DNA from: Escherichia phage DaisyDussoix
Sequence record: MZ501058
Reading direction: 5' to 3' (one strand)
Length of the DNA stretch: 64,000 nt
In this document: one piece after another, positions 6,024 to 63,990 of the stretch
How positions within the stretch are numbered: the stretch's first letter is position 1
How the letters are laid out: the number at the start of each line of letters is the position of its first letter
Made by a program: the position numbers and the translations under genes
The notes under the pieces: generated by a model
What the model was told of the DNA's origin: nothing
Database searches by the model: none
The model's input: only the letters and a program-made list of their open reading frames with translations

Positions 6024-6132
6024 TATACCCTCCTTCTCTAACTAAGACTACTATTATAACTCATTCGAAGGCGGATGTCAACAATATTTTACTATAACAT
6101 TCTGTAAATTGATCTGAGTCAAAAAATTTTAT

Positions 6133-6161
6133 TTGCCAACCTCTATTAAAAATAGTATAAT
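6133..6161 (+). promoter_or_regulatory. sigma70-type promoter (upstream of phoH)
   Basis: TTGCCA -35 and TATAAT -10 with AG upstream. Confidence 0.5.
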
Positions 6162-6366: not shown

Positions 6367-7128
6367 GTGTTATTTATGGGAAAAGCACGTCAAAAAAGAG
6401 AGAACCGCAATGGTTCAAGAAAGCGTGGCAACAAGTACGAGAGTAACGTAATTCAAGCAGATTTCTCTGGTGATTACGCCAATCCAGTTGCTAAATCCCT
6501 AGTTGGTAAAAACCGTGAGCAAAAATCATATATCAATATGATCAAGAACAACACAGTGACTGTGGGTATCGGTGAACCAGGTACTGGTAAAACCTTTATC
6601 CCGTCTGTTCTTGCAGCTCAGGAACTCGTAGACATTCACTCAGATATTGAGCAAGTGATCCTCGTACGTCCTAATGAACCTCTAGGTAAGTCTCTTGGTA
6701 TGCTTCCTGGTGATCTAGCGGAAAAGCTAGAGCCTTGGTTAGAGCCAATAGCTGATGGTATGAAATGGGCCATCGGCGACCATGCCTATAAGGGATATGT
6801 CGAACGTCAGAAAATTAAATTTTTGGCTGTAGAACATGCTCGTGGCAGAACTTTCAACAACTCCTATGTAATTGTCGATGAAGCTCAGAATATTTCCGTT
6901 GAGGCAATGATTTGTCTCCTAACTCGTGTAGGGCAAGACTGCCGTTTAATTATCTGCGGAGATATAGCTCAGAAAGACATTAAAGGTGACTCAGGTCTAG
7001 CACTCCTTATGGAAGTCTATGAGAAATATGAAAATGCCCCATTCTCAATGATCGAATTGATTGATAACGTTCGTTCTATTGAGTCTAAAGCATTCTATGA
7101 TATTTTTAAAGACATGGGGAAGGTGTAA
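6367..7128 (+). CDS. phoH: PhoH-like ATPase
   Basis: 253 aa; Walker A GEPGTGKTF and VDEAQN Walker B-like motif. Confidence 0.9.
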   Translation: MLFMGKARQKRENRNGSRKRGNKYESNVIQADFSGDYANPVAKSLVGKNREQKSYINMIKNNTVTVGIGEPGTGKTFIPSVLAAQELVDIHSDIEQVILVRPNEPLGKSLGMLPGDLAEKLEPWLEPIADGMKWAIGDHAYKGYVERQKIKFLAVEHARGRTFNNSYVIVDEAQNISVEAMICLLTRVGQDCRLIICGDIAQKDIKGDSGLALLMEVYEKYENAPFSMIELIDNVRSIESKAFYDIFKDMGKV

Positions 7129-7493: not shown

Positions 7494-9824
7494 ATGAGCC
7501 ATCGCATTGAAAAAGTAATTAAACGTGACGGTACTGTAGAAGACTTTGCTCCTGAAAAACTCAATGGTTGGGCAGAGTATGGTTGCAAAACAGTTGATGT
7601 AAGCTGGTCAGCCATTACTATGGCTGCTCAAAAAACTCTACCTAAAGGGGTTGTAGATTCCGACACTCTGATGGATGCATTAATTAAGGCTGCTGAAAGT
7701 CTTATCAAAGATAATCCAGCATACGATGTGCCAGCAAAGGAATTACGTCTTGCGCAAATGCGTAAACGCCTTTATGATTCTTTCGAACCACCTTCTCTAC
7801 GCTTCTTCCATGATCACATGGTTAGCGTAGGTGCATGGGAAGACATGAGTGCATGGATTACCGATGAGCAATTTGAAGCTCTGAATCAGGTTATCGACCA
7901 TGATCGTGACCGTCTTTTTACTAGTGGTGGGCTGAAGCAGTTCTTTGATAAGTATTCCCGTCGTAATATAGCCACTGGTGAAATTTACGAAACTCCGCAA
8001 TTCGCCTACATGGGTATGGCAATGGCGATGTTATCTCAACCTAACTGGACAATTCTAGATGCAATCGACCTCTACAACGCAATGTCGCTCCACAAAATCA
8101 ACGTTCCTACGCCGCCACTGGTTGGCCTGCGCTCTAGTGACCGTGGATTTGCTAGTTGCTGCCTCGTGGATTCCACTGACACGTTGGATTCAATCGACAC
8201 CGCCGAGCACATCGTCTTCAAAATGGTCGCAGCCAGAGCGGGAATCGGGTATCATCTTGAAAGCCGATCAATTGCTGATCCGGTGCGAAATGGGGCATTC
8301 CCGCATTCCGGAAAACTGCCATATTATCGACACATTGACCGCTCAGTAAAGGCCAATACTCAGCAAACTCGTGGTGGTTCTGCTACAGTGTCTTATCCAT
8401 ATTTCGATCCTGAAATCATTCAATTGATGCAGGTTAAGCAACAACGTGCTACAGATGAGAATAAAATCGATAAGATGGATTATTCTCTGAGCTTCAACAA
8501 TCTTTTGTTAAAACGTTATCTGAAAAACGAAGATATTACGCTAATGTCATACTTCTATGCTCCAGAAGTTCATGAGGCGTTTTATAGTGATGACGAGGCT
8601 AAATTTGAAGAAATCTATGTGGCAGCGGAGAAACGTGTGGCATCTCTTACAAAGATCGACCACGAAGGAAAGACAGTTCCAGCAGCTCCTAAGGTCTCTG
8701 CAAAAGAAATCCTAGATACTTGGCTACGTATCCGAATGGAAACAGGACGTATGTATGCTCATCACATCGGGGAATCTAATCGTCACGGTAACTTCCTTGA
8801 TCCGATCCGTATGACAAACCTTTGTGTTGAAATTACTCAGCCTACACGCCCGTTCCATCATATTACAGAGCTGTATAAGACAAAAGAGCAGCTTGATCAA
8901 ATGAAGCCGGAGGATATTGGTGAAGTATCCCTGTGTAACTTAGGTGGTGTTGTACTTGGACGCATGGAATCTCTGGCTGAGTGGGAAAAAACTTGCTACA
9001 TCCTTCTGAAATTCGTTGATACAATTATTGAAATTCAGGATTATCCGTTCCCAACTATGGAATATACGGCTAAGAAACGTCGTAACGTTGGTATTGGCCT
9101 GATGAATGCAGCAGGTGCAATGGCAGCAGAAGGTCTGGCTTACGAAGGTATTGAAGCCCGTAACTGGATTCACCGTGAGGCTGAAAAACTGTCTTACTTC
9201 CTGCATAAAGCCTCTGTACGCCTGGCTAAAGAACAGGGCGCATGTGAGTGGTTTGATCGTACTAAACCATCTAAAGGAATTCTAGTAATCGATACGTACA
9301 AGAAAACTGTTGATGAACTGGTATCCGTAGGTCTAGAAATGGATTGGGAGTCTCTGCGTGCAGATATTCTGAAATACGGCATGCGTAACTCTGTTCTGAC
9401 TGCTCAGATGCCAGGAGAAAGTTCTTCTGTTCTGTTAGGTGTTACTAACTCTATTGAACCGCCTCGTAAGATTGTATCTATCAAGGGTAGTGCAGTAAAT
9501 AAAGTAATTGCAATTGCTCCAGGTGCAACCGATTGGGAAACGTTAATGAGCTATAAATTGGCTTATGATGTAGATCGTATCGAGTGGATCAAATGGGTAG
9601 CAACTATGCAGAAATTCTTCAGTCAGTCTATCAGTACGAATATGTACTATGACTACACCAAGTTTGAGAATGAGATCATTCCTGGTCCAGTAGTAGTTCG
9701 TGATTTCATGACTGCTGTTAAGTATGGGTGGAAAACTTGGTATTACGCTAACTTCAATACTGCAAATGGTGGAGGTGCTGGAGAAGAAGCAGCCGGTTGT
9801 GCATCAGGCGGTTGTACTATTTAA
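7494..9824 (+). CDS. nrdA: ribonucleoside-diphosphate reductase alpha subunit (class Ia)
   Basis: Start MSHRIEKVIKRDG (ATP-cone) preceded by AAAGGAAAG RBS; ORF track extends upstream to 7389. Confidence 0.95.
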   Translation: MSHRIEKVIKRDGTVEDFAPEKLNGWAEYGCKTVDVSWSAITMAAQKTLPKGVVDSDTLMDALIKAAESLIKDNPAYDVPAKELRLAQMRKRLYDSFEPPSLRFFHDHMVSVGAWEDMSAWITDEQFEALNQVIDHDRDRLFTSGGLKQFFDKYSRRNIATGEIYETPQFAYMGMAMAMLSQPNWTILDAIDLYNAMSLHKINVPTPPLVGLRSSDRGFASCCLVDSTDTLDSIDTAEHIVFKMVAARAGIGYHLESRSIADPVRNGAFPHSGKLPYYRHIDRSVKANTQQTRGGSATVSYPYFDPEIIQLMQVKQQRATDENKIDKMDYSLSFNNLLLKRYLKNEDITLMSYFYAPEVHEAFYSDDEAKFEEIYVAAEKRVASLTKIDHEGKTVPAAPKVSAKEILDTWLRIRMETGRMYAHHIGESNRHGNFLDPIRMTNLCVEITQPTRPFHHITELYKTKEQLDQMKPEDIGEVSLCNLGGVVLGRMESLAEWEKTCYILLKFVDTIIEIQDYPFPTMEYTAKKRRNVGIGLMNAAGAMAAEGLAYEGIEARNWIHREAEKLSYFLHKASVRLAKEQGACEWFDRTKPSKGILVIDTYKKTVDELVSVGLEMDWESLRADILKYGMRNSVLTAQMPGESSSVLLGVTNSIEPPRKIVSIKGSAVNKVIAIAPGATDWETLMSYKLAYDVDRIEWIKWVATMQKFFSQSISTNMYYDYTKFENEIIPGPVVVRDFMTAVKYGWKTWYYANFNTANGGGAGEEAAGCASGGCTI

Positions 9825-50404: not shown

Positions 50405-51010
50405 GTCGGATTTGCACATTGTGTTTCTAGAAATTTATGGTCGGATTTGCACAAACGCCTAAGTTTTTAGGAACTCTTACTCTCCTGAAAATAGCAGCAT
50501 TATTTCGGGCCGAAGGCCCGTGATTGCCTGAGTTTTTAGAGCCACAGAAATTTTCACTTGTCAAGCTATTTTGCCCCATTTTGCTAATAAAATTTTACTT
50601 TATCTCCACTAATCTCAAATTAACCCAAATCTTCTCAACTCTTCCCCAAAAACGCAGCAAATCAGGTGCTCCGCACCAAACATGCGCCTCTCTCACAGTT
50701 CCCCCAAGTTTCTCTCGCTCTCTCAACTTCTCCCCAAACCCACACAATCACACACCCTCCAATCGAAGTCACAAAAATCTTGTCGGATTCGCACATCTTA
50801 ATCCTAGAAAAACCGTGTCGGATTTGCACATACCCCACAGGATTCGAACGCAGTTCGAGATTGCTGGAGTTTTTGGGAAAATTCATTGTCGGATTTGCAC
50901 ACTATAAAAATTTTTCGGGTCGGATTTGCACACTACCAAAAATTGTCGGATTCGCACATACATGCCCGCACGTAACACCCGTGGAGCAATGTCGGATTTG
51001 CACAAAAGCG
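50405..51010. repeat. iteron-like array: 8 copies of GTCGGATT(T/C)GCACA
   Basis: Copies near 50406, 50440, 50783, 50815, 50887, 50918, 50943, 50990, all same orientation, irregular spacing; the ORF-track calls here are probably spurious. Confidence 0.7.
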
Positions 51011-51215
51011 CAGGGCAATTGCCCTGCTTGCCTGAATGCGAATGATAATGAGAATCATTCGCATTTAAAAAGCGGAACGAGAATGATAATAATTCGCATT
51101 TAAGAATGGAAGTGAGAATTATTCAGGAAGTGAAACGATTCTCATTTAAAAAGTGGAATGATTATTAGTTAGATAGTGAAATGCGAATGATAATGATTCG
51201 CATTTAAGAATGGAA
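51011..51215. repeat. array of AATGCGAATGATAAT...ATTCGCATTTAA hairpin-forming repeats
   Basis: Palindrome CAGGGCAATTGCCCTG, then three AATGCGAATGA/TCATTCGCATT inverted-repeat units each followed by TTAAGAATGGAAGTGAG-like sequence. Confidence 0.6.
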
Positions 51216-51237
51216 GTGAGTAACACTATTATTTAAG

Positions 51238-51319
51238 TTATCCACAGACTTATTAACAGCACGATTTGACTTGACAAAATCCTAGCCATTTTGAGGCGTT
51301 ATTAACAGACTTATCCACA
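51238..51319. promoter_or_regulatory. DnaA boxes (2 consensus TTATCCACA sites)
   Basis: TTATCCACA at 51238-51246 and 51311-51319. Confidence 0.6.
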
Positions 51320-51328
51320 GGTTATCCT

Positions 51329-51348
51329 ACTGTATAAATATACAGTAT
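51329..51348. promoter_or_regulatory. LexA (SOS) box, near-consensus
   Basis: TACTGTATAAATATACAGTA versus consensus TACTGTATATATATACAGTA, 19 of 20 match. Confidence 0.6.
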
Positions 51349-51540
51349 TCCTACGCAGTGAATAATTCTAATATACAGCTAAAACGCTCTCAAACGCATT
51401 CTAACGCGTTTAATTTTGGTGGGGATACTAAAACAAGGGCAAAATTGGAGGAGGCTTGAAAATTAGTTAGCTCGCTAATGATCACACAAGGCGATACGTA
51501 ACACCCTAATCATTAGCAGGCTAACCATCGCGGGCGCGGT

Positions 51541-51563
51541 CAAATGAGAATCATTCTCATTTG
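51541..51563. repeat. perfect palindrome CAAATGAGAATCATTCTCATTTG
   Basis: 10-bp arms; related to the GAGAATCATTC units upstream. Confidence 0.55.
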
Positions 51564-51604
51564 AAAATTGGGGGGCACTTCCTGATAGTTGCGCCCCGTG
51601 ATTA

Positions 51605-51799
51605 TTAGTCTGGTAGTCGGTGCGTGATTTTCTCCTCCTCCCCGTAGGAATCTACCAAATGTTGATAATAACCATCGTGATCATAAATCACTTTATCATA
51701 CTCGCCACGCTCGACCGCTTGTCGGTTTTCCGGCGTATCGGGCACGTAAAAAACATCAACCATTGTACTGATTTTGGTTACAACAATTTTATTGCTCAT
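51605..51799 (-). CDS. hypothetical protein (pre-early-like module)
   Basis: 64 aa, last gene of the minus-strand operon. Confidence 0.5.
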   Translation of the reverse strand: MSNKIVVTKISTMVDVFYVPDTPENRQAVERGEYDKVIYDHDGYYQHLVDSYGEEEKITHRLPD

Positions 51800-51824
51800 A
51801 ATAACGCCCCGTTACTATATAATC

Positions 51825-52169
51825 TCATTGCGCCACCTTTCGAAATGCTGTTTCAATACTATCAGCGGTGGATTGAATATATGCGCCTTTCATTATCAGG
51901 CGCTCGGTACATACCTTGCGGAAAATATTAATAAAATCATCTTCATTTTCTGCAATTAATGCTTCACCCATAACCTGAACGTCACAAGATGCAAAGGTCA
52001 AAAATTGAAACGCTAGTTCACGGGCAACGACCGCATTGATTTTATAATGCGCCTTGCCCTCATAAATATTAATAACGCCCTTATAGGCTGGGGAAAGCTG
52101 ATTTAAATAGTTTGCTAACAATGCCGGGCGGCAATTAGCAACAAAACGATTGCCCTCATAAATAACCAT
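51825..52169 (-). CDS. hypothetical protein
   Basis: ORF 51825..52208 trimmed to Met (MVIYEGNRF) whose ATG follows the upstream stop by 1 nt. Confidence 0.5.
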   Translation of the reverse strand: MVIYEGNRFVANCRPALLANYLNQLSPAYKGVINIYEGKAHYKINAVVARELAFQFLTFASCDVQVMGEALIAENEDDFINIFRKVCTERLIMKGAYIQSTADSIETAFRKVAQ

Positions 52170-52170
52170 T

Positions 52171-52383
52171 TTATAATACCCCACGAAACGCAGCGTAAAA
52201 GGTGGCAAAGTGTTTAACTGTTTCAGCGATCATGTTGCCGCGCTTGTCAAATTTCTTTTCTGTAACACGAAAGGCATTCTTATTACGTGCTACATATTCG
52301 ATTTTACAATCTTCCCGCTCGAACGTGTTAACGTCCACCAGCTTAAAGCCTTTCGAACGTGCGAGAGAAACATTACGAATCAT
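52171..52383 (-). CDS. hypothetical protein
   Basis: 70 aa ORF. Confidence 0.5.
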   Translation of the reverse strand: MIRNVSLARSKGFKLVDVNTFEREDCKIEYVARNKNAFRVTEKKFDKRGNMIAETVKHFATFYAAFRGVL

Positions 52384-52385
52384 TT

Positions 52386-52535
52386 TTATTCTCCTTTACT
52401 AGTCATGCAGCCCAGCAGATAAGAAAATACAGCGATACCCGCGCCGATAATAACGGCGTGAACACCGAAAGCTATTGCAAACAACGATAAAATAGCGCCC
52501 AAGATACCCGCCAGAATAGCTCGAAAAATAATCAT
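52386..52535 (-). CDS. small hydrophobic membrane protein
   Basis: About 49 aa (MIIFRAILAGILGAILSLFAIAFGVHAVIIGAGIAVFSYLL...) with GGAGAATAA RBS; below ORF-track cutoff. Confidence 0.35.
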   Translation of the reverse strand: MIIFRAILAGILGAILSLFAIAFGVHAVIIGAGIAVFSYLLGCMTSKGE

Positions 52536-52581
52536 TTTTATTCTCCTAGTCAGTGGGGGATATAATATCCCCCGTTATTAA

Positions 52582-52812
52582 TTACATTAAAACAATTTTT
52601 GCAGCTTGTTTTTTAGTGCAATGTTCAGCTTTCAGGGTATCCAGCAAAAAGCCCGCCGTTTGCTGATCGATTTTATCGGCGTTGTATAGTTCCTGAATGG
52701 TATTATAAGTTTTAGCAATGCCGAACTCCTGCACCATTTCATAGATGACAGCACGATTAGATACCCAGCCTTGAGCGGTGAACAGATGAGTAGCAGAAGA
52801 GTAAGCAACCAT
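52582..52812 (-). CDS. hypothetical protein
   Basis: 76 aa ORF. Confidence 0.5.
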   Translation of the reverse strand: MVAYSSATHLFTAQGWVSNRAVIYEMVQEFGIAKTYNTIQELYNADKIDQQTAGFLLDTLKAEHCTKKQAAKIVLM

Positions 52813-52916
52813 TTTAAGCCTCCAAATTTTTGGGAAATTTTCAACCCACCGTTTTGGTGTAAAAGCATTATAACAAAAAAGGCCACCATAAAAGGCGACC
52901 TTTACAAAACTTTACA

Positions 52917-53411
52917 TTAAACTACTTGTAAGGACTCAACATTGAAACATCGTTTCAATTCGTCATGCAAAACGGCATATTCCTCCCATCGGGTATTATC
53001 AGGAATATAAACAAGCTGTTTTAATCGGTTTGCATATATTACCGCTTTGTTATCGACTATCTCGACGCCGCCATATTTAATAATTAATTTCATGACGGAA
53101 TTAATAGGATCGCCGCCGTTTACATATGTGCCGGATTTACTTAGCTGATAATGATAAAGGCTTGCGTATACGTTTTCATTTTCATACCATTCGCCAGTTT
53201 CTTCGTCTTCATAGCCATCGCTACCAAAACGAGAAGCATTATCAACAGCCATTTCATGAGCAAAAGCGTCCAGATCCGTACCAGCAGGAACAAAATATTC
53301 CTCGGTATTCCCTTCCCCGCAATAGCCAGTATGACAATCGACTAAAATGATCATATCATGTTTAGCCGTGCTCACTTCCCCTAGCGAGAAGCCGTATTTT
53401 TCCTCAGCCAT
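52917..53411 (-). CDS. hypothetical acidic protein
   Basis: 164 aa ORF with GGAGG RBS. Confidence 0.55.
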   Translation of the reverse strand: MAEEKYGFSLGEVSTAKHDMIILVDCHTGYCGEGNTEEYFVPAGTDLDAFAHEMAVDNASRFGSDGYEDEETGEWYENENVYASLYHYQLSKSGTYVNGGDPINSVMKLIIKYGGVEIVDNKAVIYANRLKQLVYIPDNTRWEEYAVLHDELKRCFNVESLQVV

Positions 53412-53425
53412 TAGTTAGCCTCCTA

Positions 53426-53743
53426 TTAATTAGCGGGAAAATAAAACTGATTGCCTGTTTCATATTGGTCATTGTCTAAGAATACAACCTCATCCGTGAT
53501 TACTTCCGATTCTGATACTCCTATTAATAACTCACCTTTAAAAACGCAAAGTTTTCCATGACCTAAATCACGAAAGGCATGAAATCCGTTTGCGCTTTCT
53601 GCATGTTGCCATACGTGGGGCCATCCTGCTTTTTTCCATGAATCGGCGGTGTCTACTACTTCCGAAGAATAGTTAATGTGAGGATAGTCATCGCGCTGGA
53701 TTCTACCTTGCAATTGTTCTAGCATTTTTTGGTTAAGCTGCAT
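53426..53743 (-). CDS. hypothetical protein
   Basis: Start MQLNQKMLEQ preceded by AGGAGG RBS. Confidence 0.5.
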   Translation of the reverse strand: MQLNQKMLEQLQGRIQRDDYPHINYSSEVVDTADSWKKAGWPHVWQHAESANGFHAFRDLGHGKLCVFKGELLIGVSESEVITDEVVFLDNDQYETGNQFYFPAN

Positions 53744-53807
53744 AATTAGCCTCCTATTAATTAACAAGGGAATAGTAAAGTGGGGAAATAATCCCCACTA
53801 AATATTA

Positions 53808-54818
53808 TTACTCGATTTCGGTGCTAGTGGTAAAAGTAGAAATATCAATACCTTTCACCATTTCATCAATCATTTCAGCGATGTTGAAACTTTGTACCAT
53901 TTCCAACATTGCCGCCTCCATAGCCGCCCCTGCTACCGCTTTCGCCTTTTGGTTAGTCGGTGCGTACTGGTCAACCGCTACACTCAGCAGGTTAGCGATC
54001 ACTACACGACCAATAGGAGTATCGATATAACCTTTGATCATAAACGGTGCTTTTTTAGCCGCTACTTTCGTAATTTGAGTCAGTGCAATTTTACCCGCTT
54101 CCAGTTTTGCAGCATTTACAACAGCGGATTTATTAGCGGCAACGATGTTAGCAATCTTGGTCATGGTGTTTTTTCCTTTGTTTTCAGTAGTTTGAGTGTT
54201 AACGCTTTGAGTGTTAGAATTTACAGCATGGTTTTCTACGCTGTCAATAATCTGATCTTCATCTTTCCAGAAAGAAAAACCAGCGCTTTCTATATCCCCA
54301 TCATAAATATATGGGTATAGCTCCCGTGGTAACAAAAAATTACCATCGCCATCAAAAGCCATTATACCAGTATATTGAGATCCGTCGTTATCCGGCTTAT
54401 GCCATCCAGCGGGTAAATACTTCCAGATAACATCTAAAAATCCCTCAATGCTAGAAAGTCTATTTATCAGATCAAGCCCAATAAGCTCGAAACCATTTAT
54501 ATTAAATGATTGACGGCCTGAATTGCTATGATACGCAACAATATTATTACCCTGCGCAATAATAAAATCGGTATCCGGCCCCGCTCCCCTGCCTGTAAAG
54601 ATATGGCAATCCCGATTATATAAAACTAGCGTTGCCCCTTGTTTATATAACGGCAAAAAACCATCCATATCATAAGCGTCATAATCATCAAAAAAGTTTT
54701 GATGAATAGTTTCAGCCTTGTTAATAAAATGTTTAATGCTGGTTGACTTGCTACCGTCCAGCAGGTTGCGCAATGCGCCTTTTAAAACGGTGGCATTATC
54801 AGGTTTATACAGCCTCAT
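53808..54818 (-). CDS. hypothetical protein, first gene of minus-strand operon
   Basis: 336 aa; start MRLYKPD preceded by GAGGAGG RBS; no motif recognised. Confidence 0.6.
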   Translation of the reverse strand: MRLYKPDNATVLKGALRNLLDGSKSTSIKHFINKAETIHQNFFDDYDAYDMDGFLPLYKQGATLVLYNRDCHIFTGRGAGPDTDFIIAQGNNIVAYHSNSGRQSFNINGFELIGLDLINRLSSIEGFLDVIWKYLPAGWHKPDNDGSQYTGIMAFDGDGNFLLPRELYPYIYDGDIESAGFSFWKDEDQIIDSVENHAVNSNTQSVNTQTTENKGKNTMTKIANIVAANKSAVVNAAKLEAGKIALTQITKVAAKKAPFMIKGYIDTPIGRVVIANLLSVAVDQYAPTNQKAKAVAGAAMEAAMLEMVQSFNIAEMIDEMVKGIDISTFTTSTEIE

Positions 54819-55084
54819 TTGTTCGGCCTCCTCGTTAATCGGTGAGTGAATGATAAAGGTAATTTTCTAGCATAGGCAAATATTATTTTACCTTTTTATT
54901 TTCCTTGCCTAGCGCCTATTTTTATGCTAATCGCGCAGCGGTGTAATAAAGAGCAAAACACGGCGAAGCCACCAGGCCGCAGCATTGAGGCTTTACTTTA
55001 CTATTACCTTGCAGCGTTTAGCTCGTTAGAATGCGATTTAGGCCGCTTAAAATTGATTGCAGTTGTTAACACTACCTTTTTACC

Positions 55085-55100
55085 CTGTATATTTATACAG
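55085..55100. promoter_or_regulatory. LexA (SOS) box upstream of the minus-strand operon
   Basis: CTGTATATTTATACAG core, CTGT-N8-ACAG, about 270 bp upstream of the 54818 start. Confidence 0.55.
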
Positions 55101-55110
55101 TGGAATAACC

Positions 55111-55192
55111 TGTGGATAAGTCTGTGTAAAAGTCCTTATATCGCCGCCTATCGTGTCAAGTTATTTTGTGCTGTGGATAACGTTGTGGATAA
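55111..55192. promoter_or_regulatory. DnaA box cluster (3 sites, inverted orientation)
   Basis: TGTGGATAA at 55111-55119, 55172-55180, 55184-55192. Confidence 0.6.
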
Positions 55193-55443
55193 CTTAAATG
55201 ATAGTGGTTCTCACTTAGCTAGATGATTTCTTATAGTTATTATTTCTCATTAATTTATATGTATATTATATATCATGAAATAGTTATTTAGCTAATGAGA
55301 TTTTTCGTGATTAATAGTCTGCTAATAGTTTACTCTGTTACAGTCCACCAGCATGATTATCATCCTAGCAATTATTATCCTGCTATCTTTCCGATACATA
55401 CTAGCAAACAAAAGTCAATTAATTTATTTCATAAAATAAGTAG

Positions 55444-55510
55444 TTATCCACTGGAAAATAAAAGTCAAGTGGATAACTAGGAAAATTTCATTTTTGCTTT
55501 TGGGGATAAG
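55444..55510. promoter_or_regulatory. additional DnaA-box-like sites in divergent intergenic region
   Basis: TTATCCAC at 55444, GTGGATAA at 55470, GGGGATAAG at 55502. Confidence 0.4.
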
Positions 55511-55923
55511 TTATCAACAAGGCTAGAATGCGCCTAAAACGCCCTAGAACGCGATGAAGTTTTTAGCCATCCCATCATAAGGGAACACGCCGTTTATCGC
55601 CATCAGGAGGATTCTAGATTTTGTCAAGTATGGCAAAGCAAATATAAATGAAAAAATTACTTGCCTATTTGCTATGTTTTGTGGTATTCGCGCGCCCGTT
55701 TCTTTTAATTTTAGGCCGTCGCCGCACGGTGTCCGGTGAGTTTTACCTTTACATTTCTTTACAAAAATAAGGTTGCGCCATTTTCGGGAATCCCCTATTA
55801 TTTATCACGTAGGGCGGCAATGACGAACTACACGGCGGGAAGTTTACCGCCACGCTCTTTAAAAATTGGGTACATCTTAAAGCCTATCGGCGGTAAACTT
55901 ATACATTATAAGGAATCGACGAT

Positions 55924-56703: not shown

Positions 56704-57111
56704 ATGACTAACGCTAAAACCGCAAAATTCGGATGGAATGAAGAAAACACTCAGAAAGCTGTTTCCATGTATCAGCAGTTAATTAATGAAAACGGTTTAG
56801 ATTTCGCAAATAGCGACGGCCTGAAAGAGATTGCAAAAGCAGTAGGCGCGGCTTCCCCTGTATCCGTTCGCTCAAAATTGACCAGTGCAAAAGCCTATCA
56901 AAAAAGCGATAAGCCGCGTAAAGTTGGCGGCGGTAGCTCTGTGCGTAAAGCTCACTATGTGCGAGTAATTGCAAAACACGCTATCGATTCCGGCATTATC
57001 AAAGACGCCGATGATCTGGCAAGTCTGGAAAGTGCAAAACTTGAAACGCTGGACGCAGTAGCGCAATTGTTAGGCGTTGCCGATGAAGTAAAACAGGCCG
57101 CAGGGGAATAA
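56704..57111 (+). CDS. pre-early protein, A2-like by size and position
   Basis: 135 aa ORF preceded by the conserved leader motif; placed next to the A1-like gene; A2 identity is from memory of size only. Confidence 0.45.
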   Translation: MTNAKTAKFGWNEENTQKAVSMYQQLINENGLDFANSDGLKEIAKAVGAASPVSVRSKLTSAKAYQKSDKPRKVGGGSSVRKAHYVRVIAKHAIDSGIIKDADDLASLESAKLETLDAVAQLLGVADEVKQAAGE

Positions 57112-57489: not shown

Positions 57490-59160
57490 ATGATTATTTC
57501 CGCAGAAAAACAAACCGTTATCCTGAAAATGGCCGCTGACTTTAATTTCTATGGTAAACGTCTGCGCGCTACTAAACTGGAGGTCTGCGACGATATATCA
57601 AAAGCAGTCTACGATACAACGAAACATTCCACCGCCATTTGTGATTGGCTGGAAGCAAACAAACCAGCGAAACCAAAAGCGGCAAAAGTAGCAAAAGCCA
57701 TTAAAAATGATGAGCGCCCAGAAGCGGCTGGGATTGTTTCTAGTACCGTGGAACAGTGGGAAGTAAAACAGGGTAAACGTTTTATTATTACGTCGATTCA
57801 GAATAATACTTTCCCGCATAAAAACTTTTTGGCCTCACTGGAGCAATTTGCTAAATATATCGGCGCTGATTTGCTGGTTAGCAAGTATATTTATAATAAA
57901 AACGGATTCCAAAATGGGGAAGGTGCGGACGGTATCAAATATGACCCCGCTTTTGATAAATATATTTGCAGCAAAAACGTGTTTTTGAATAATCGCCGTT
58001 TTGCTTTCATGGCTGAAATTAACGTTTTGCCAACCGCAGATTATCCGCTTTCTGGATTCGCTGAAACTGCAACCGCGCTTAATCTTGAAGGTCTGGCAAT
58101 TGGTCACGCTAAAATCACCGCCGAAAGCGTTCCAGCTTTAAAAGGTGAAGTAGTGCGCCGTATGTATTCAACCGGAACGGCAACGCTCAAAAACTACATT
58201 CAGCAGAAGGCAGGACAAAAAGCCGAAGCATTGCATAATTTCGGTGCGCTTGTTGTCGAGTTCGACGAGGACGGTGAGTTTTTTGTTCGCCAGCTTGAAA
58301 CAATGGACGAAAGCGGGGTGTTTTATGATCTGAATGTTTGCGCTACTCCCGCCGGATGCTATGAAACAACGGGGCACGTTTTAGGTTTACAATATGGCGA
58401 CATTCACGCCGAAAAATTAGATGAAGAGTGCGCCGCCGCATCTTGGGGGCATGGTGATACTTATGGGCTTGTGGATATTCTTAAACCAAAATATCAGTTT
58501 GTGCATGACGTGCATGATTTTACGTCCCGCAATCATCATAACCGCGCATCCGGTGTATTCCTAGCAAAACAGTATGCCGCCGGACGTGATAAAGTTCTGG
58601 ATGATCTTATCGATACGGGGCGAGTGCTGGAATCAATGGAACGTGATTTTAGTCAAACGATCATTGTTGAATCGAATCACGATTTGGCGCTATCCCGTTG
58701 GCTTGATGATCGTAATGCTAACATTAAAGACGATCCCGCGAACGCCGAACTATATCATCGCCTGAATGCTGCAATTTACGCGGCAATCGGTGAACATGAC
58801 GAAACGTTTAACGTGCTAGATTATGCGTTGCGCAAGGTTGCAGGTTGTGAATTTAACGCCATTTTTCTAACGACTGACCAATCTTTCAAGATTGCAGGGA
58901 TTGAATGCGGCGTACACGGTCACAATGGCATTAACGGCAGCCGTGGCAATCCTAAACAATTTAAGAAATTGGGCAAGTTAAACACGGGGCATACGCATAC
59001 CGCCAGCATTTACGGCGGCGTATACACCGCTGGCGTAGCTGGTAGTCTGGATATGGGTTACAACGTTGGCGCGTCAAGCTGGACGCAGACGCATTTAATT
59101 ACCTATGCAAATGGTCAAAGAACATTGATTGACTTTAAGAACGGTAAATTCTTTGCATAA
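57490..59160 (+). CDS. A1: pre-early protein A1-like metallophosphoesterase-domain protein
   Basis: 556 aa; C-terminal half has YGDIHAE, ESNHD, GVHGHNG, GHTHT calcineurin-like phosphoesterase motifs; length matches my recollection of T5 A1. Confidence 0.7.
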   Translation: MIISAEKQTVILKMAADFNFYGKRLRATKLEVCDDISKAVYDTTKHSTAICDWLEANKPAKPKAAKVAKAIKNDERPEAAGIVSSTVEQWEVKQGKRFIITSIQNNTFPHKNFLASLEQFAKYIGADLLVSKYIYNKNGFQNGEGADGIKYDPAFDKYICSKNVFLNNRRFAFMAEINVLPTADYPLSGFAETATALNLEGLAIGHAKITAESVPALKGEVVRRMYSTGTATLKNYIQQKAGQKAEALHNFGALVVEFDEDGEFFVRQLETMDESGVFYDLNVCATPAGCYETTGHVLGLQYGDIHAEKLDEECAAASWGHGDTYGLVDILKPKYQFVHDVHDFTSRNHHNRASGVFLAKQYAAGRDKVLDDLIDTGRVLESMERDFSQTIIVESNHDLALSRWLDDRNANIKDDPANAELYHRLNAAIYAAIGEHDETFNVLDYALRKVAGCEFNAIFLTTDQSFKIAGIECGVHGHNGINGSRGNPKQFKKLGKLNTGHTHTASIYGGVYTAGVAGSLDMGYNVGASSWTQTHLITYANGQRTLIDFKNGKFFA

Positions 59161-59984: not shown

Positions 59985-60719
59985 ATGAATAAAGCTATTA
60001 TGAATATTTCCCGCAGCTTCCCGCATATTTCCCGCGTCATGATTTGGGATTTAGACGGCACTATCATTAATTCTTTCCATCGTGTAGCGCCTTGCTTTGA
60101 TAATGAGGGTAATTTAGATTTAAATAAGTATAAAAATGAAGCCTGCAAACATCATTTAATAATGCAAGATACTTTATTACCATTAGTTGAATACATGCGC
60201 CAGTGCATGAATGACTCAAATACTTTAAACATTATTTGCACCGCTCGACTAATGAGCAAATCAGATTATTACTTCCTGCGCAAACAAGGCTTGCGTGGTC
60301 GTGATAAAAGCAATATCCGCGTGTTTTCCCGCGACACACTGCATAAATATTTTAAAGCTGATAAGGTTAGCGAAATATACCACAGCAAGGACGCAGTGTA
60401 TAAATCTTATTATTTTGAGTTATTTAAACAGTTATATCCGAACGCTGATTTTACAATGATTGATGATCATAAAGGCGTGCTATCAGCGGCAGCGTCATAC
60501 GGATTTAAAACACTGGACGCACAAGCCGTTAACGATATTCTATCAATCGGCGTGGCATTAATAGGTGAAACCTTTATTGATGAATCCCTCGACGATGATA
60601 ATGATTATCAATTCCTAGCTGATCGTTTGAAATTATGTTGGGAAGGTATGACCGAGGAAGAACGCGCAGAATATAGTTGCAGCCCGCAACAATACATGGA
60701 GAAATTAAAAGTTGCATAA
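59985..60719 (+). CDS. dmp: HAD-family 5'-deoxyribonucleotidase-like protein
   Basis: 244 aa; IWDLDGTIINS HAD motif I; dmp assignment from position in the A1 cluster. Confidence 0.7.
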   Translation: MNKAIMNISRSFPHISRVMIWDLDGTIINSFHRVAPCFDNEGNLDLNKYKNEACKHHLIMQDTLLPLVEYMRQCMNDSNTLNIICTARLMSKSDYYFLRKQGLRGRDKSNIRVFSRDTLHKYFKADKVSEIYHSKDAVYKSYYFELFKQLYPNADFTMIDDHKGVLSAAASYGFKTLDAQAVNDILSIGVALIGETFIDESLDDDNDYQFLADRLKLCWEGMTEEERAEYSCSPQQYMEKLKVA

Positions 60720-60736
60720 TAATTAAAGTTGAAATA

Positions 60737-60773
60737 GTTTCACCCTGCAATTAAAATGGTTGCAGGGTGAAAC
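60737..60773. terminator. palindrome after dmp-like gene, likely bidirectional terminator
   Basis: GTTTCACCCTGCAA-TTAAAATGG-TTGCAGGGTGAAAC, between convergent gene sets. Confidence 0.55.
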
Positions 60774-60883
60774 AGTTACCCTGATAATAGTAACGGGGGT
60801 GGCGGTTAGCAGACTAAGTATTCTCCCCCAACCCACTGGACACACCTCCATGTGTAATCTTATGAAATTTGGCAAAAGTCAAA

Positions 60884-61129
60884 TTAGCGCATAGAAGGGT
60901 CATCAAACCTGTGTTCTGGTCTGAACTCACGGAATCTCTTCCGCGATGCCCGAGATCCATCCGACCACTCCCGCTCAAACTCCGCACGTTTCTCGTCAAA
61001 CTTCCGCTCCCTTTCCGCAATCTCCCGCGACACTCCCGCAATATATTCCCGATGCTTGTTAATTGCCGCAGTCGCTCCGAAAACTCCCGCGAGTATCCCG
61101 ATAATAAAAGCAATTACAATACTAAACAT
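60884..61129 (-). CDS. small membrane protein
   Basis: 81 aa with N-terminal TM helix. Confidence 0.45.
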   Translation of the reverse strand: MFSIVIAFIIGILAGVFGATAAINKHREYIAGVSREIAERERKFDEKRAEFEREWSDGSRASRKRFREFRPEHRFDDPSMR

Positions 61130-61316
61130 CTAATTCCCTCTCAATTTGCAGAATACGGGTGCTATCACAACGTTGCAGTAGTACTAGCTTTTCTAGAGTA
61201 ACTTGTTGTTGTTTTACCTGAGCTTCTAGAGTTTTTAGGCGAACATACGCGTTATAAGAAACAATGAAAGTTGCCCAGACCAGTATTACTATTAGTGTAG
61301 CTACTACTTCCATCAT
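61122..61316 (-). CDS. small membrane protein
   Basis: 64 aa with N-terminal TM helix. Confidence 0.45.
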   Translation of the reverse strand: MMEVVATLIVILVWATFIVSYNAYVRLKTLEAQVKQQQVTLEKLVLLQRCDSTRILQIERELDV

Positions 61317-61318
61317 TT

Positions 61319-61426
61319 ACGTTTCTCCAGTAATAAGGTTTCAATTCTATCTAAGTGATTATCCAAAATACATTGCCCAATAATCACAATTCCTAGTAGT
61401 GCAATAATTACCCATTCCATTATTTA
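61319..61426 (-). CDS. tiny membrane protein, paralog of 61420..61575
   Basis: About 35 aa (MEWVIIALLGIVIIG...RIETLLLEKRK); shares MEWVII and RIETLLEE ends with neighbour. Confidence 0.3.
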
Positions 61427-61575
61427 CGCTCCTCTAATAAAGTTTCAATTCTAGATAATCTATTACTCAACTGCATTAATTTAATTTCTGTTTGGGTTAC
61501 AGAGGTATCTATTACACGTAAGCCTACAAAGAGAAGTATCAATAAGACGAATATGCCAATAATTACCCATTCCAT
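61420..61575 (-). CDS. tiny membrane protein
   Basis: Internal Met MEWVIIGIFVLLILLFVGL of ORF 61420..61605. Confidence 0.4.
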   Translation of the reverse strand: MEWVIIGIFVLLILLFVGLRVIDTSVTQTEIKLMQLSNRLSRIETLLEERK

Positions 61576-61701
61576 TAAATCCACCCCGCCATAGCTGCTA
61601 ACCAAAAACCTACGAAGATTAGGAATAATACAAAACCAAATCCGTAAATATTAATCCACGCTTCGTACACTTCTCCACGTCTGTTCTTTCTTTTATTTGA
61701 C
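61573..61701 (-). CDS. tiny membrane protein
   Basis: About 42 aa (MSNKRKNRRGEVYEAWINIYGFGFVLFLIFVGFWL...); below ORF-track cutoff. Confidence 0.3.
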
Positions 61702-61880
61702 ATATCTTTCTTGCTCCTATGAGTATGGTATTTTAAAATATTTTATAATTTGTATATAACCAACCATGCTTGTGACTTCCTAGAAGGACTTCTCATTTTC
61801 TTACATAGTGGTTTCTGCCAATATACCATCCAAAAAATAAAAAATTTAGTTTACTTAGATGTCTTTTTGCTTTATACTAA

Positions 61881-62147
61881 TTACAGGTAGTTAGATTGCT
61901 CTAGTTTAAATTTACAATCACCATATTTAAGGTCAAACTGACTGAGATCCCACCATCCAAACTTAGTACGGAGCTGTACTACTGGGAAGCGATCTCCCTT
62001 AATACGAACTTTTTGAACCTTGAGGCCGTAATGTTCTTCTCCCGCACCACCAAAAGATTTTACAAATCCAGTACAAAATGGTTTGGGAGCAGGTGCACAA
62101 CCAGATAACATAACTGCGGCAACTAGTGCAATCACAAACTTTTTCAT
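61881..62147 (-). CDS. llp: Llp-like lipoprotein (candidate receptor-blocking superinfection-exclusion protein)
   Basis: 88 aa; signal peptide with lipobox LSGC; divergent from the adjacent RBP-like gene, as recalled for T5 llp/oad. Confidence 0.6.
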   Translation of the reverse strand: MKKFVIALVAAVMLSGCAPAPKPFCTGFVKSFGGAGEEHYGLKVQKVRIKGDRFPVVQLRTKFGWWDLSQFDLKYGDCKFKLEQSNYL

Positions 62148-62232
62148 ATTTATCTCTCCATTTCTAATTTATGAATCTATTATAGCAAAATAGAGGGATG
62201 AAAGCAAATACATTTTTATAATAGGAGATTAT

Positions 62233-63990
62233 ATGGGTTTTTTCGCTGGAAAATATAGCGATGGTAAGACCGTACTATCTTTAAATACTGAATCTGGTGG
62301 TGACATTAATCGTCACTATAGTCCAAATGCCAATAGTATTTTTCATAGTGATATGCCATTTGTCCTAGTTGATGGTACTTATGAGGCTGGGTTAGGAAAT
62401 GCCGGAAATGGGTTTTTTGTATGTCAGATGCCCTCTGACATAATAAATATTAAATCTAACGATCCTGGTAGAGTTATATTAACTGCTATTGAGATTAATG
62501 GTACTCACAGAGCTTTTCTTAATGGTACTCAGAGTAAGGTGGGTCAAACTATAGTTGCCACTCAAGCAGATCCTTTTAGATCTTTTGCTAGTGTTTCCCA
62601 GACTAGTGGATTTGCATTTGGTAATAGCCTGGCATCTGGTACATATAACTATAATCCATCTATAGGGCATGAAGAATCTATTTCTAGGAATGGTACTGGT
62701 GGAACTACCCTACATAGTACGTATCATGGTATAGTTAGGCCAGGTGCAGGAGCTCCAGTAGGGGTTACTGTTGCAAAAGCTTTTGCACAGTTAGGATTCC
62801 CTACTAATAGTAGTACAGTACCTATAGATGGGAATAACCAAAATTACTGGGACCCAGGATGGATGTCTCCTTTAGGATCAGCACACAGAGGGCACGATTG
62901 GTTCTATGTTTGTAACTCTAACATACGTGGGTATGGTGGGGTAAGACAAGGTCTTCCTGGTAATGTAAATACTATGTATCATGATGGGGGTAATAGGTTT
63001 GTTTGTAGGGGTTCTACAACTAATTTAGCTAATCAATCTGGTGATTCTACAATACTACAAGATTGGTATAACATAACTCCTACTAAAGTTATTTGGTACG
63101 TTTTGAATTTAAGATACTCAAATGGTGGTATGAGTATCTCTGGTAATCCTTTTACTGGTTCAGATATTCTTATATCTCCTTCTAATTTCATAATTAAAGG
63201 GGTTAGTCTTCCCAATACTGGATACAAGTTTATTAACCAGAACGCTTTCGGTAACTTAGGTTATAGACCAGATATGGAATATATTGGAAATAATGCAGCA
63301 TATACTGGGGCCTTTGGGGATACCACCGCAAGGTGCGAACTTGTAGGTTCTAGTAACGGGAGTTTATGGTCTCCTGTGGACTATGGAGGGGCTAAGTCTC
63401 AAATTAGTATTTACAAATTCGGAGCTGGTAAGCAATGGTACGTAAACTCTAATGATAATACTATCGGTAATGGACACGGGGTTGTTTGGGGACCATCAGC
63501 AGTTCCATTACGACTTTTTGGTGGAAATGTAGGTAGTTCTTATATGGGAGATGATATTACCCCCAGCTACCCAGGAACAGGAGATAGATACGTTGGTTTA
63601 TCAACTATTGGGCTAGGTATACCGGGTGGCAATGCTACAGTAATTCTTACCACTGAAGTTATATCAGGTAATCTTAACTGTGCAGGTGTCCCTGCTAATA
63701 CATGGAATAACGGTGTGTTTCAGGTGCAAGGAAGAAGAGCATATAGTTATAGTAATGGTGACGCGATATTCCACCAGATTTTAACATTACCAGTAGGGTA
63801 TTTAGTACCTTTTCATACTACATCTGCTTTTAGATACACACCTAACAATGCCCTAAGTAGAAATAGTTTTATATATACTGCTAAAAATCTGGGGAATGGA
63901 AATGTAGAGTTAGGGGTAGTTATGCACGTAAGTTTAGGTAGTGCAGTTTTTCTACCTAGATTAAGAGTAACAGTTCAACGCCTTACCTAA
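62233..63990 (+). CDS. receptor-binding tail protein (pb5/Oad-like)
   Basis: 585 aa; N-terminus MGFFAGKYSDGKTVLSLNTESGGDINRHYSPNANSIFHSDMP resembles my recollection of T5 pb5; Gly/Asn/Thr-rich. Confidence 0.6.
   Translation: MGFFAGKYSDGKTVLSLNTESGGDINRHYSPNANSIFHSDMPFVLVDGTYEAGLGNAGNGFFVCQMPSDIINIKSNDPGRVILTAIEINGTHRAFLNGTQSKVGQTIVATQADPFRSFASVSQTSGFAFGNSLASGTYNYNPSIGHEESISRNGTGGTTLHSTYHGIVRPGAGAPVGVTVAKAFAQLGFPTNSSTVPIDGNNQNYWDPGWMSPLGSAHRGHDWFYVCNSNIRGYGGVRQGLPGNVNTMYHDGGNRFVCRGSTTNLANQSGDSTILQDWYNITPTKVIWYVLNLRYSNGGMSISGNPFTGSDILISPSNFIIKGVSLPNTGYKFINQNAFGNLGYRPDMEYIGNNAAYTGAFGDTTARCELVGSSNGSLWSPVDYGGAKSQISIYKFGAGKQWYVNSNDNTIGNGHGVVWGPSAVPLRLFGGNVGSSYMGDDITPSYPGTGDRYVGLSTIGLGIPGGNATVILTTEVISGNLNCAGVPANTWNNGVFQVQGRRAYSYSNGDAIFHQILTLPVGYLVPFHTTSAFRYTPNNALSRNSFIYTAKNLGNGNVELGVVMHVSLGSAVFLPRLRVTVQRLT

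What the first reader, a model, noticed from the sequence alone, without database searches (positions are those of the whole stretch)
51237..55192. A 3.6 kb operon of unknown genes bracketed by inverted repeats carrying DnaA boxes and LexA boxes
Two imperfect inverted repeats of about 180 bp (51237-51420 and 55000-55192) each contain consensus DnaA boxes and a near-consensus LexA box. They flank a tightly coupled minus-strand operon of eight unannotatable genes (51605-54818) that is GC-richer than the early region. The layout could mean SOS/DnaA-sensing control of a pre-early anti-host module, a replication-origin or DnaA-titration element, or the footprint of an inserted or invertible cassette. 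None of the eight proteins has a recognisable motif, so this is the best candidate in the window for an undescribed function.
Basis: partly seen in the sequence, partly recalled or inferred. Interest (0 to 1): 0.8.

Follow-up and report, generated by a model that had tools for sequence, protein, structure and literature searches.

The report
Known T5 repeats hiding LexA sites
This is the already-described pair of inverted repeats that brackets a block of accessory early genes in the terminal repeat of T5-like phages. Each repeat also carries a near-perfect binding site for the host SOS repressor LexA, conserved across the whole phage family and, as far as I could find, never pointed out.

Summary
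The arms 51214-51413 and 55017-55216 form a real inverted repeat (132-nt core, 77% complementary). Together they hold eight DnaA-type boxes and two LexA-type 20-mers. They flank eight minus-strand genes.

It is not a new structure. The window is a T5-like phage and the segment is the right half of its terminal repeat, the first-step-transfer DNA. The arms are T5's IRC-spacer-IRD and IRD'-spacer-IRC', annotated in GenBank AY587007. The DnaA boxes were described by Davison as part of the injection-stop signal. The genes are T5.011-T5.017 orthologues plus two extras. In T5 the 011, 013 and 015 products are toxic to the host, 015 is an Ung-dependent nickase, and the block is dispensable.

What seems new is the LexA reading. 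T5's 'palindrome D' is TACTGTATAAATATACAGTA, 19/20 to the LexA consensus. It sits next to a DnaA-box pair in both arms. It is kept in 39 of 40 T5-like loci and in Klebsiella, Pantoea, Proteus and Vibrio relatives whose A1 protein is only 32-42% identical. I found no paper that mentions it.

Best reading: the arms are landing pads for host DnaA and LexA on the entering DNA. They do not look like a classical SOS promoter, an origin or a programmed switch. The mechanism is untested.

The parts
51214..51413 (.). Left arm, homologous to T5 IRD'-spacer-IRC' plus an inner element. It is the first element of the injection-stop-signal region.
   Evidence: Inverted-repeat pairs I1 and I3; alignment; homology to T5 9409-9540 of NC_005859, inside the annotated iss.
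51238..51258 (+). DnaA-box pair TTATCCACA-gac-TTATTAACA (IRC' part).
   Evidence: Same pair geometry as described by Davison.
51299..51319 (+). DnaA-box pair TTATTAACA-gac-TTATCCACA (IRD' part).
51328..51347 (.). LexA-type operator TACTGTATAAATATACAGTA, the same element as T5 'palindrome D'.
   Evidence: 25.7 bits. Annotated only as a palindrome in AY587007 at 9330-9349. It has the highest information content within the arm across 62 arm sequences.
51605..51799 (-). Gene 8, 64 aa, T5.017 orthologue (89% identity).
   Evidence: phrog_6973.
51825..52169 (-). Gene 7, 114 aa, orthologue of NC_005859 T5.015 (94%). T5.015 is toxic and acts as an Ung-dependent AP-site nickase.
   Evidence: phrog_4379.
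52171..52383 (-). Gene 6, 70 aa, T5.014 orthologue (99%). RefSeq and PHROG attach the 'Ung-dependent nickase' label to this protein instead of T5.015.
52386..52535 (-). Gene 5, 49 aa, hydrophobic, T5.013 orthologue. T5 gp013 is toxic to the membrane.
52582..52812 (-). Gene 4, 76 aa, T5.012 orthologue (83%).
52917..53411 (-). Gene 3, 164 aa, absent from T5, present in about a third of related loci (phrog_6741).
53426..53743 (-). Gene 2, 105 aa from its ATG, absent from T5 and rare among relatives (phrog_16959).
53808..54818 (-). Gene 1, 336 aa, T5.011 orthologue (89%), DUF7566. T5 gp011 is toxic and disorganises the nucleoid.
54850..54879 (-). Promoter of the operon (TTGCCT-18-TATCAT), near-identical to the T5 promoter upstream of 011.
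   Evidence: T5 annotation 6411-6489. Described as experimentally characterised in T5.
55017..55216 (.). Right arm, homologous to T5 IRC-spacer-IRD plus an inner element. It lies between the two divergent pre-early operons.
55083..55102 (.). LexA-type operator CCCTGTATATTTATACAGTG.
   Evidence: 21.6 bits.
55111..55131 (-). DnaA-box pair (TTATCCACA and TTTTACACA on the minus strand), IRD part.
55172..55192 (-). DnaA-box pair (two TTATCCACA on the minus strand), IRC part.
50778..51210 (.). [quoted passage not shown] It holds six TGTCGGATTTGCACA repeats (T5 DRD) and the AATGAGAATCATTCGCATTT palindromic repeats (T5 DRC/DRE).
   Evidence: Direct-repeat families D1-D4; T5 annotation.

Best explanation
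The segment is the right half of a T5-type terminal repeat, that is, first-step-transfer DNA.

The eight minus-strand genes are the accessory second pre-early operon. They are orthologues of T5.011-T5.017 plus two extra genes, driven by the T5 P011-type promoter. They encode small host-takeover proteins, several of them toxic to the host. In T5 the block is dispensable.

The two arms are T5's IRC-spacer-IRD and IRD'-spacer-IRC'. The first lies between the two divergent pre-early operons. The second is the first element of the injection-stop-signal region.

Each arm is a composite landing pad for host proteins. It has two pairs of DnaA boxes 3 bp apart. About 8 bp inward from the second pair sits one near-consensus LexA operator (T5 'palindrome D').

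The most likely mechanism is as follows. [quoted passage not shown] They build a nucleoprotein structure at the borders of the operon and at the start of the stop signal. This structure helps to organise or pause the entering DNA. This is Davison's DnaA model with LexA added.

Shown here: the sequence features, the homology and the family-wide conservation. Inferred: that the proteins bind in vivo, and what binding does.
For: Identity with the T5 architecture: 90-95% DNA identity to T5-like phages under their terminal-repeat annotation, the T5 feature tables and operon protein identities of 67-99% to T5.

The LexA-type sites score above or within the range of real SOS boxes, and they are the only such sites in the 64-kb window.

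Conservation is strong. 39 of 40 loci anchored on the A2 gene have at least two boxes of 17 bits or more. The null rate is 0.74 per Mb.

The DnaA-pair plus LexA-box module persists in Klebsiella Roth49, Pantoea AAS21, Proteus phage 1, and Vibrio D260 and Bennett. In the Proteus and Vibrio phages A1 is only 32-42% identical and the flanks are unrelated. It also persists in further metagenomic relatives.

Natural variants keep CTGT/ACAG, or use CTGG/CCAG as real SOS boxes do, and they vary in the centre.

The LexA box is the most conserved stretch of the arm.

A similar composite occurs in phage contigs that show no A1 or A2 homologue in the loci held. This favours host factors over a T5-specific protein.

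A2 of Vibrio phage Bennett is only 35-38% identical to T5-type A2, yet the palindrome is unchanged.
Against: No binding or genetic data exist for LexA.

The boxes do not overlap the known promoter. P011 is about 205 bp away.

A T5 mutant deleted from hegG to 017 is viable, with smaller plaques. If that deletion is contiguous it removes the right arm.

Davison reports T5-like types that lack IRC/IRD altogether.

From general knowledge, T5 plates on recA strains, so LexA cleavage cannot be required.

DnaA binding to the arms is itself only a hypothesis.

My LexA weight matrix rests on sites recalled from memory.
Confidence: 0.5

Rival explanations
1. The palindrome is the operator of a phage-encoded protein, for example the dimeric DNA-binding protein A2 that is needed for the second transfer step. 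The resemblance to a LexA box would then be coincidence, or deliberate competition with LexA.
For: A2 is a conserved DNA-binding dimer required for second-step transfer. Its homologue is encoded near the module in the Demerecviridae loci examined. Palindromes suit dimeric binders. The invariant part, CTGTAT-N4-ATACAG, is longer than the minimal LexA core.
Against: The motif stays fixed while A2 falls to 27-44% identity. It matches the LexA consensus at 19 of 20 positions, including the flanking TA. The same composite occurs in phage loci that show no A1 or A2 homologue. A2 has no detectable LexA-like or other known domain by sequence.
Confidence: 0.2
2. The LexA boxes are classical SOS operators of so far unmapped promoters inside the arms. 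One candidate is TTAACA-16-TATATT at 55066-55093, whose -10 lies inside the right box. Transcription out of the arms would then be switched on when LexA is cleaved.
For: The promoter scan finds this site with 10 of 12 matches. A -10-like TAGAAT about 20 nt from the left box is conserved in left-type arms.
Against: The -35 of the right-arm candidate is not conserved in T5. The two arms do not share promoter geometry. No conserved RNA lies downstream: RNAalifold gives -0.17 kcal/mol and Rfam gives nothing. The three experimentally characterised pre-early promoters lie elsewhere.
Confidence: 0.1
3. The arms matter mainly as recombination substrates. They mark the borders of an exchangeable and invertible accessory-gene cassette, and the host-factor sites are incidental.
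For: Gene content between the arms varies widely. The whole block, including the inner arm flanks, is inverted in the Klebsiella-phage lineage L039-L042 relative to all others.
Against: This does not explain why the DnaA and LexA motifs are the best-conserved columns of the arms. It does not explain why some relatives carry a single symmetric DnaA-LexA-DnaA unit with no cassette (L085, L090). No recombinase was detected among the 16 ORFs of the repeat that were scanned. The arms are only 77% identical here, which makes them a poor substrate.
Confidence: 0.1
4. The DnaA-box clusters form a replication origin or a DnaA-titrating element.
For: There are eight boxes in paired arrays. There are four more near-consensus boxes and a stretch of 75-82% AT just outside the right arm, at 55200-55520. 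This is an origin-like layout.
Against: T5 origins were mapped near the genome centre, and the replication genes are on second-step DNA (Davison). The host DNA is destroyed within minutes, so titrating DnaA would have no target. The LexA box is unexplained by this reading.
Confidence: 0.05

Closest known systems
T5 inverted repeats IRC-spacer-IRD and IRD'-spacer-IRC' with 'palindrome D', in Repeat Regions 2 and 3 of the left terminal repeat (injection stop signal); Wang 2005 annotation, Davison 2015/2020
   Same: Homologous sequence, same 131-132 nt arms, same four pairs of DnaA boxes with 3-bp gaps, same position around the 011-017 block, and the same neighbouring DRC/DRD repeats.
   Different: This phage has eight rather than seven DnaA-type boxes and two extra genes between 011 and 012. 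The literature I could read treats the inner 20-mer only as a palindrome, not as a LexA site.
E. coli SOS boxes (LexA operators of recA, sulA, umuDC and others)
   Same: CTGT-N8-ACAG palindrome with an AT-rich centre and flanking TA. The score is at the top of the range of genuine sites.
   Different: It does not overlap a mapped promoter. It occurs in a strictly virulent phage, always paired with DnaA boxes and in two inverted copies 3.7 kb apart. Binding is untested.
DnaA-box arrays of oriC, datA and DARS
   Same: Clusters of same-orientation consensus boxes at short fixed spacing. Davison drew the same analogy.
   Different: The gaps are 3 bp. The literature gives no evidence of unwinding or initiation there. 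The element is combined with a LexA site.
LexA-controlled switches of temperate phages and plasmids (186 tum, P1 coi, GIL01, colicin promoters)
   Same: Mobile elements use host LexA as a sensor. The P2-like contigs found in my scan (group D: L094, L121, L123, L124) are probably of this type.
   Different: Those sites repress a defined promoter and decide between lysogeny and lysis. Here there is no lysogeny and no overlapped promoter.

Membership tests
T5 iss-associated inverted repeats (IRC/IRD and IRD'/IRC') | A pair of inverted repeats of about 131 bp inside the terminal repeat, flanking the 011-017 gene block. | tested here: met
   132-nt arms at 77% complementarity; homology and position.
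T5 iss-associated inverted repeats (IRC/IRD and IRD'/IRC') | Eight DnaA or DnaA* boxes in four pairs separated by 3 bp. | tested here: met
   Six consensus boxes plus two TTATTAACA, all in pairs with 3-bp gaps; definition.
T5 iss-associated inverted repeats (IRC/IRD and IRD'/IRC') | The outer arm is followed by DRC/DRE palindromic repeats and DRD repeats up to the end of the terminal repeat. | tested here: met
   Repeat families D1-D4 at 50773-51220; compare the T5 feature table.
T5 iss-associated inverted repeats (IRC/IRD and IRD'/IRC') | DNA transfer halts here in vivo. | not testable with these tools
   Needs blender or Southern first-step-transfer assays.
LexA operator (SOS box, Gammaproteobacteria) | CTGT-N8-ACAG palindrome with an AT-rich spacer, scoring within the range of known sites. 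| tested here: met
   25.7 and 21.6 bits against 12.8-24.1 for 26 recalled E. coli sites; null rate.
LexA operator (SOS box, Gammaproteobacteria) | Overlaps or abuts the promoter it represses. | tested here: inconclusive
   P011 is about 205 bp away. One candidate promoter overlaps the right box but is not conserved in T5.
LexA operator (SOS box, Gammaproteobacteria) | Bound by LexA and derepressed on SOS induction. | not testable with these tools
   Needs EMSA, ChIP or expression assays.
LexA operator (SOS box, Gammaproteobacteria) | The motif tracks the host LexA specificity when hosts differ. | not testable with these tools
   All hosts named for the A2-bearing relatives I examined are Gammaproteobacteria, which by general knowledge share this LexA motif. 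Two records named 'Campylobacter' were not examined. A1-bearing phages of other phyla have unrelated genome contexts.
DnaA-dependent replication origin | A DnaA-box cluster next to an AT-rich unwinding element, with initiation there. | tested here: inconclusive
   The boxes are present, and a stretch of 75-82% AT lies at 55200-55300. The literature places T5 origins near the genome centre.
Programmed invertible segment (Gin/Hin/Cin type) | A site-specific recombinase encoded in or next to the segment. | tested here: not met
   No recombinase family was hit among the eight operon proteins or the eight left-operon proteins.
Programmed invertible segment (Gin/Hin/Cin type) | Both orientations occur. 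| tested here: inconclusive
   Opposite orientations are seen between lineages. Variation within a population cannot be tested here.

The most novel reading that the evidence does not exclude
Host LexA, together with DnaA, is a working part of the nucleoprotein complex that holds T5-type first-step-transfer DNA. A DnaA-pair plus LexA-box composite would then be a general 'entry checkpoint' module of virulent phages of Gammaproteobacteria. Similar modules occur in phage contigs that appear unrelated to T5. [quoted passage not shown]
Probability: 0.15. Interest if true: 0.85.

Novelty: new member of a known kind. Interest (0 to 1): 0.5.

Why it matters
How T5 stops DNA injection after 8% of its genome and later restarts it has been an open question for about sixty years. 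The only recent molecular proposal involves DnaA boxes.

A second host-protein site, a top-scoring LexA operator, is fused to those boxes. It is conserved from E. coli phages to Vibrio phages. That gives a concrete and cheap set of experiments: lexA and dnaA host mutants, LexA EMSA or ChIP, and point mutants of palindrome D.

It would also be an unusual case of a strictly virulent phage family keeping an SOS-repressor site.

If LexA proves irrelevant, the finding reduces to a re-discovery of annotated T5 repeats around a dispensable accessory operon.

Tried and rejected
1. Small RNA from the arms. The inner part of the left arm folds well on the plus strand (z = -3.66). However, Rfam gives no relevant hit, and RNAalifold on 14 diverse left-type arms gives -0.17 kcal/mol with no real covariation. 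Rejected.

2. Host origin of the arms. blastn of the left arm against 5,426 complete E. coli genomes found nothing.

3. Motif-switch test. I looked for A1-bearing phages whose hosts have a different LexA motif. Rhizobium RHph_X3_9 and Dinoroseobacter R26L carry A1 in unrelated genome contexts. The hosts named for A2-bearing relatives are Gammaproteobacteria, apart from two unexamined 'Campylobacter' records. The test is not possible.

4. Function of the 011 orthologue. Pfam gives only DUF7566. NCBIfam and PDB sequence searches are empty. AlphaFold2 on a shallow alignment (77-95% identical to the query) gave a mean pLDDT of 57.8. Foldseek against the PDB gave no match with E below 0.9. No conclusion.

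5. PDB sequence searches for gene 3, gene 7 and A2 gave nothing usable.

6. Which T5 protein is the Ung-dependent nickase, the 70-aa or the 114-aa one, could not be settled from the paper's text.

7. Davison's 2015 review, Wang 2005 and Heusterspreute 1987 are not in the held library. My statement that the LexA reading is unpublished therefore rests on the 2020 preprint (0 mentions), the GenBank annotations and five full-text searches.

Full report
**What the window is.** The 5.5 kb around the finding matches 537 phage records. The best are T5-like phages (ECOP18, vB_EcoS_MM-1, EC148) at about 95% identity. Where a record is annotated, the match lies under the left terminal repeat and on the minus strand. 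The window's plus strand is therefore the T5 minus strand. To the right lie orthologues of A2 (56704-57111), A1 (57490-59160) and dmp (59985-60719). Beyond them come a lipoprotein gene and a large protein that look like T5 llp and the receptor-binding protein (my reading of the ORF sequences, not tested). This suggests that the assembly collapsed the two terminal repeats into one copy.

**The observation.** It is confirmed.
- The arms 51214-51345 and 55085-55216 are 132 nt long and 77% complementary. A second, inner pair lies at 51382-51413 and 55017-55048.
- Six of the window's eleven consensus DnaA boxes lie in the arms. Two TTATTAACA variants bring the total to eight, arranged as four pairs with 3-bp gaps.
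- Two of the window's three CTGT-N8-ACAG matches are in the arms. With a weight matrix built from 26 E. coli SOS boxes recalled from memory, they score 25.7 and 21.6 bits. The training sites score 12.8-24.1 bits and the next best site in the window scores 12.6 bits. Shuffled DNA gives 0.74 hits of 17 bits or more per Mb.
- Eight minus-strand ORFs fill the interval. Terminator-like hairpins after genes 1 and 3 mean it is not one tightly coupled unit.

**It is a known structure.**
- T5 record AY587007 annotates inverted repeat C (6022-6060), inverted repeat D (6112-6152), D' (9332-9372), C' (9424-9462) and 'palindrome D' (9330-9349).
- NC_005859 places the homologue of the left arm inside the annotated injection stop signal (iss).
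- Davison's 2020 preprint describes 'IRC-spacer-IRD' and 'IRD'-spacer-IRC'' and their eight paired DnaA boxes. It notes their conservation in 25 T5-like phages and the variable 3-kb coding block between them. It proposes that membrane-bound DnaA binds them to stop DNA transfer.

**The genes.** Six of the eight are orthologues of T5.011, 012, 013, 014, 015 and 017, at 67-99% identity. Two further genes (105 and 164 aa) sit between 011 and 012. They occur only in some relatives.
- Pfam gives DUF7566 for gene 1. PHROGs places all eight in families, one of which is labelled as the Ung-dependent nickase.
- In T5, 011 and 015 are toxic, and 015 nicks abasic sites made by Ung.
- A 2026 preprint adds that 013 is toxic, that 011 disturbs the nucleoid, and that a mutant deleted from hegG to 017 is viable with smaller plaques.
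- The operon's promoter is almost identical to the T5 promoter upstream of 011. It lies at 54850-54879, about 205 bp from the right LexA-type box.
- My attempt to learn more about the 011 protein failed: pLDDT was 57.8 and there was no structural match.

**The part that seems new.** T5's 'palindrome D' is TACTGTATAAATATACAGTA, 19 of 20 identical to the LexA consensus TACTGTATATATATACAGTA (consensus from general knowledge). A copy sits at the inner edge of each arm, about 8 nt from a DnaA-box pair, in both T5 and this window.
- I fetched 40 loci anchored on the A2 gene, a choice independent of the repeats. Of these, 39 have at least two boxes of 17 bits or more. The exception is truncated upstream.
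- In an alignment of 62 distinct arm sequences, the LexA-type box is the most conserved stretch, except for its central dinucleotide. That dinucleotide flips between AA and TT.
- The module persists in distant family members: Klebsiella phage Roth49, Pantoea phage AAS21, Proteus phage 1, and Vibrio phages D260 and Bennett. In the Proteus and Vibrio phages A1 is only 32-42% identical and the surrounding DNA is unrelated.
- Variants keep CTGT/ACAG, or use CTGG/CCAG as genuine SOS boxes do.
- Neither the 2020 preprint (no mention of LexA, SOS or recA) nor five full-text searches connect T5 with LexA. Three older key papers could not be read, so prior notice cannot be excluded.

**A scan beyond the family.** I scanned IMG/VR for a DnaA box within 5-25 nt of CTGTAT-N4-ATACAG. 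It returned 79 stretches, where I estimate about one by chance.
- Most are T5 relatives, including fragments with A1, A2 and dmp homologues at 27-50% identity to the Vibrio, Proteus or T5-type queries.
- Three groups show no A1 or A2 homologue in the loci held. Judging from the few large ORFs that were typed, they look like other virulent phages. They carry a DnaA pair fused to a LexA-type box in what appears to be a divergent intergenic region.
- One relative lineage (L085, L090) has a single symmetric DnaA-LexA-DnaA unit and no gene block inside it.

These observations favour host proteins, rather than a T5-specific protein, as the readers of the module. They rest on partial loci.

**How it most likely works.**
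- Near-certain from established LexA specificity: a 19/20 consensus operator will bind LexA in vitro.
- Inferred: both arms are occupied by LexA and DnaA as soon as the FST DNA enters, and the resulting complexes organise or pause that DNA at the operon borders and at the start of the stop signal.

Classical SOS repression of the operon is unlikely because of the 205-bp distance to the promoter. A requirement for LexA cleavage is unlikely because, by general knowledge, T5 grows on recA hosts. The right arm is probably dispensable for viability (if the deletion is contiguous). I put 0.5 on the host-factor landing-pad reading. The rivals are listed separately with their tests.

**Inversion.** In the Klebsiella-phage lineage (L039-L042) the orthologues of 011 and of gene 3 are on the same strand as A1 and A2. 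In every other locus where they were found they are on the opposite strand. The inner flanks of the arms are swapped as well. Recombination between the arms has therefore inverted the block at least once. There is no recombinase gene, so this is an evolutionary event, not evidence of a programmed switch.

**Verdict.** The value added is the LexA operator. It turns an old question about the injection stop into simple host-mutant and binding experiments.

Noticed in passing
L039-L042 (for example L042 5159-9123) compared with window 51214-55216: The whole gene block between the arms, with the inner arm flanks, is inverted relative to A1/A2 in the Klebsiella-phage lineage. This implies past recombination between the inverted repeats.
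   Followed up: yes
L073, L092, L119, L122, L128; L062, L072, L116, L125, L127; L081, L083, L086: A DnaA-box pair fused to a LexA-type palindrome also occurs in contigs that, from the few large ORFs typed, look like other virulent phages. No A1 or A2 homologue is in the loci held. The module appears to lie in a divergent intergenic region. One group also has the T5-like palindrome TGAGAATCATTCTCA beside it.
   Followed up: partly
L085 10444-10510; L090 10945-11011: A distant A1/A2/dmp-bearing lineage has one symmetric unit, DnaA box(es) - LexA box - DnaA pair, with no genes inside. It may be the unsplit form of the two arms.
   Followed up: partly
window 51035-51210 and 51540-51567: The palindromic repeats of the stop-signal region (GCGAATGATAATGAGAATCATTCGC, TGAGAATCATTCTCA) match the Fur-box consensus GATAATGATAATCATTATC at 14-16 of 19 positions. 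This is the densest cluster of such matches in the window. The background of 13/19 hits is high, and an equally good match lies inside dmp (60591). T5's receptor FhuA is Fur-regulated. The idea is untested.
   Followed up: partly
window 50778-51004: In the six TGTCGGATT(T/C)GCACA repeats (T5 DRD), the copies with the T variant contain ATTTGCACA, which matches 8 of 9 positions of the DnaA-box consensus. All six repeats are in one orientation.
   Followed up: no
window 55200-55520: Just outside the right arm lie a stretch of 75-82% AT and four more near-consensus DnaA boxes (55444, 55468, 55501, 55511). Two of them form an inverted pair. The layout is origin-like.
   Followed up: partly
window 52171-52383 and 51825-52169; T5 NC_005859 T5.014 and T5.015: RefSeq and PHROGs attach the 'Ung-dependent AP-site nickase' label to the 70-aa T5.014 protein. 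The papers name gene 015, which in NC_005859 is the 114-aa protein. In AY587007 'ORF015' is the 70-aa one. This is probably a numbering mix-up in the annotation.
   Followed up: partly
L046 175 and 245; L063 7227 and 7298; L088 10319 and 10389; L091 2139 and 2208; L120 4834 and 4903: In Vibrio-type relatives the full LexA-type box is accompanied, 69-71 nt away, by a second copy with one degenerate half-site (ACAT, ATGT or TTGT in place of ACAG/CTGT).
   Followed up: no
window 51214-51236 and 55194-55216: The outer end of each arm carries a strongly conserved motif, AGTGAGAAnCACTATnATTTAAG. It has no obvious known binding protein.
   Followed up: no
window 59985-63990: dmp is followed directly by a lipoprotein gene (61881-62147, minus strand) and a 585-aa ORF (62233-63990). 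From their sequences they look like T5 llp and the receptor-binding protein. If so, the terminal repeat is collapsed in this assembly and the window spans the joined genome ends.
   Followed up: partly
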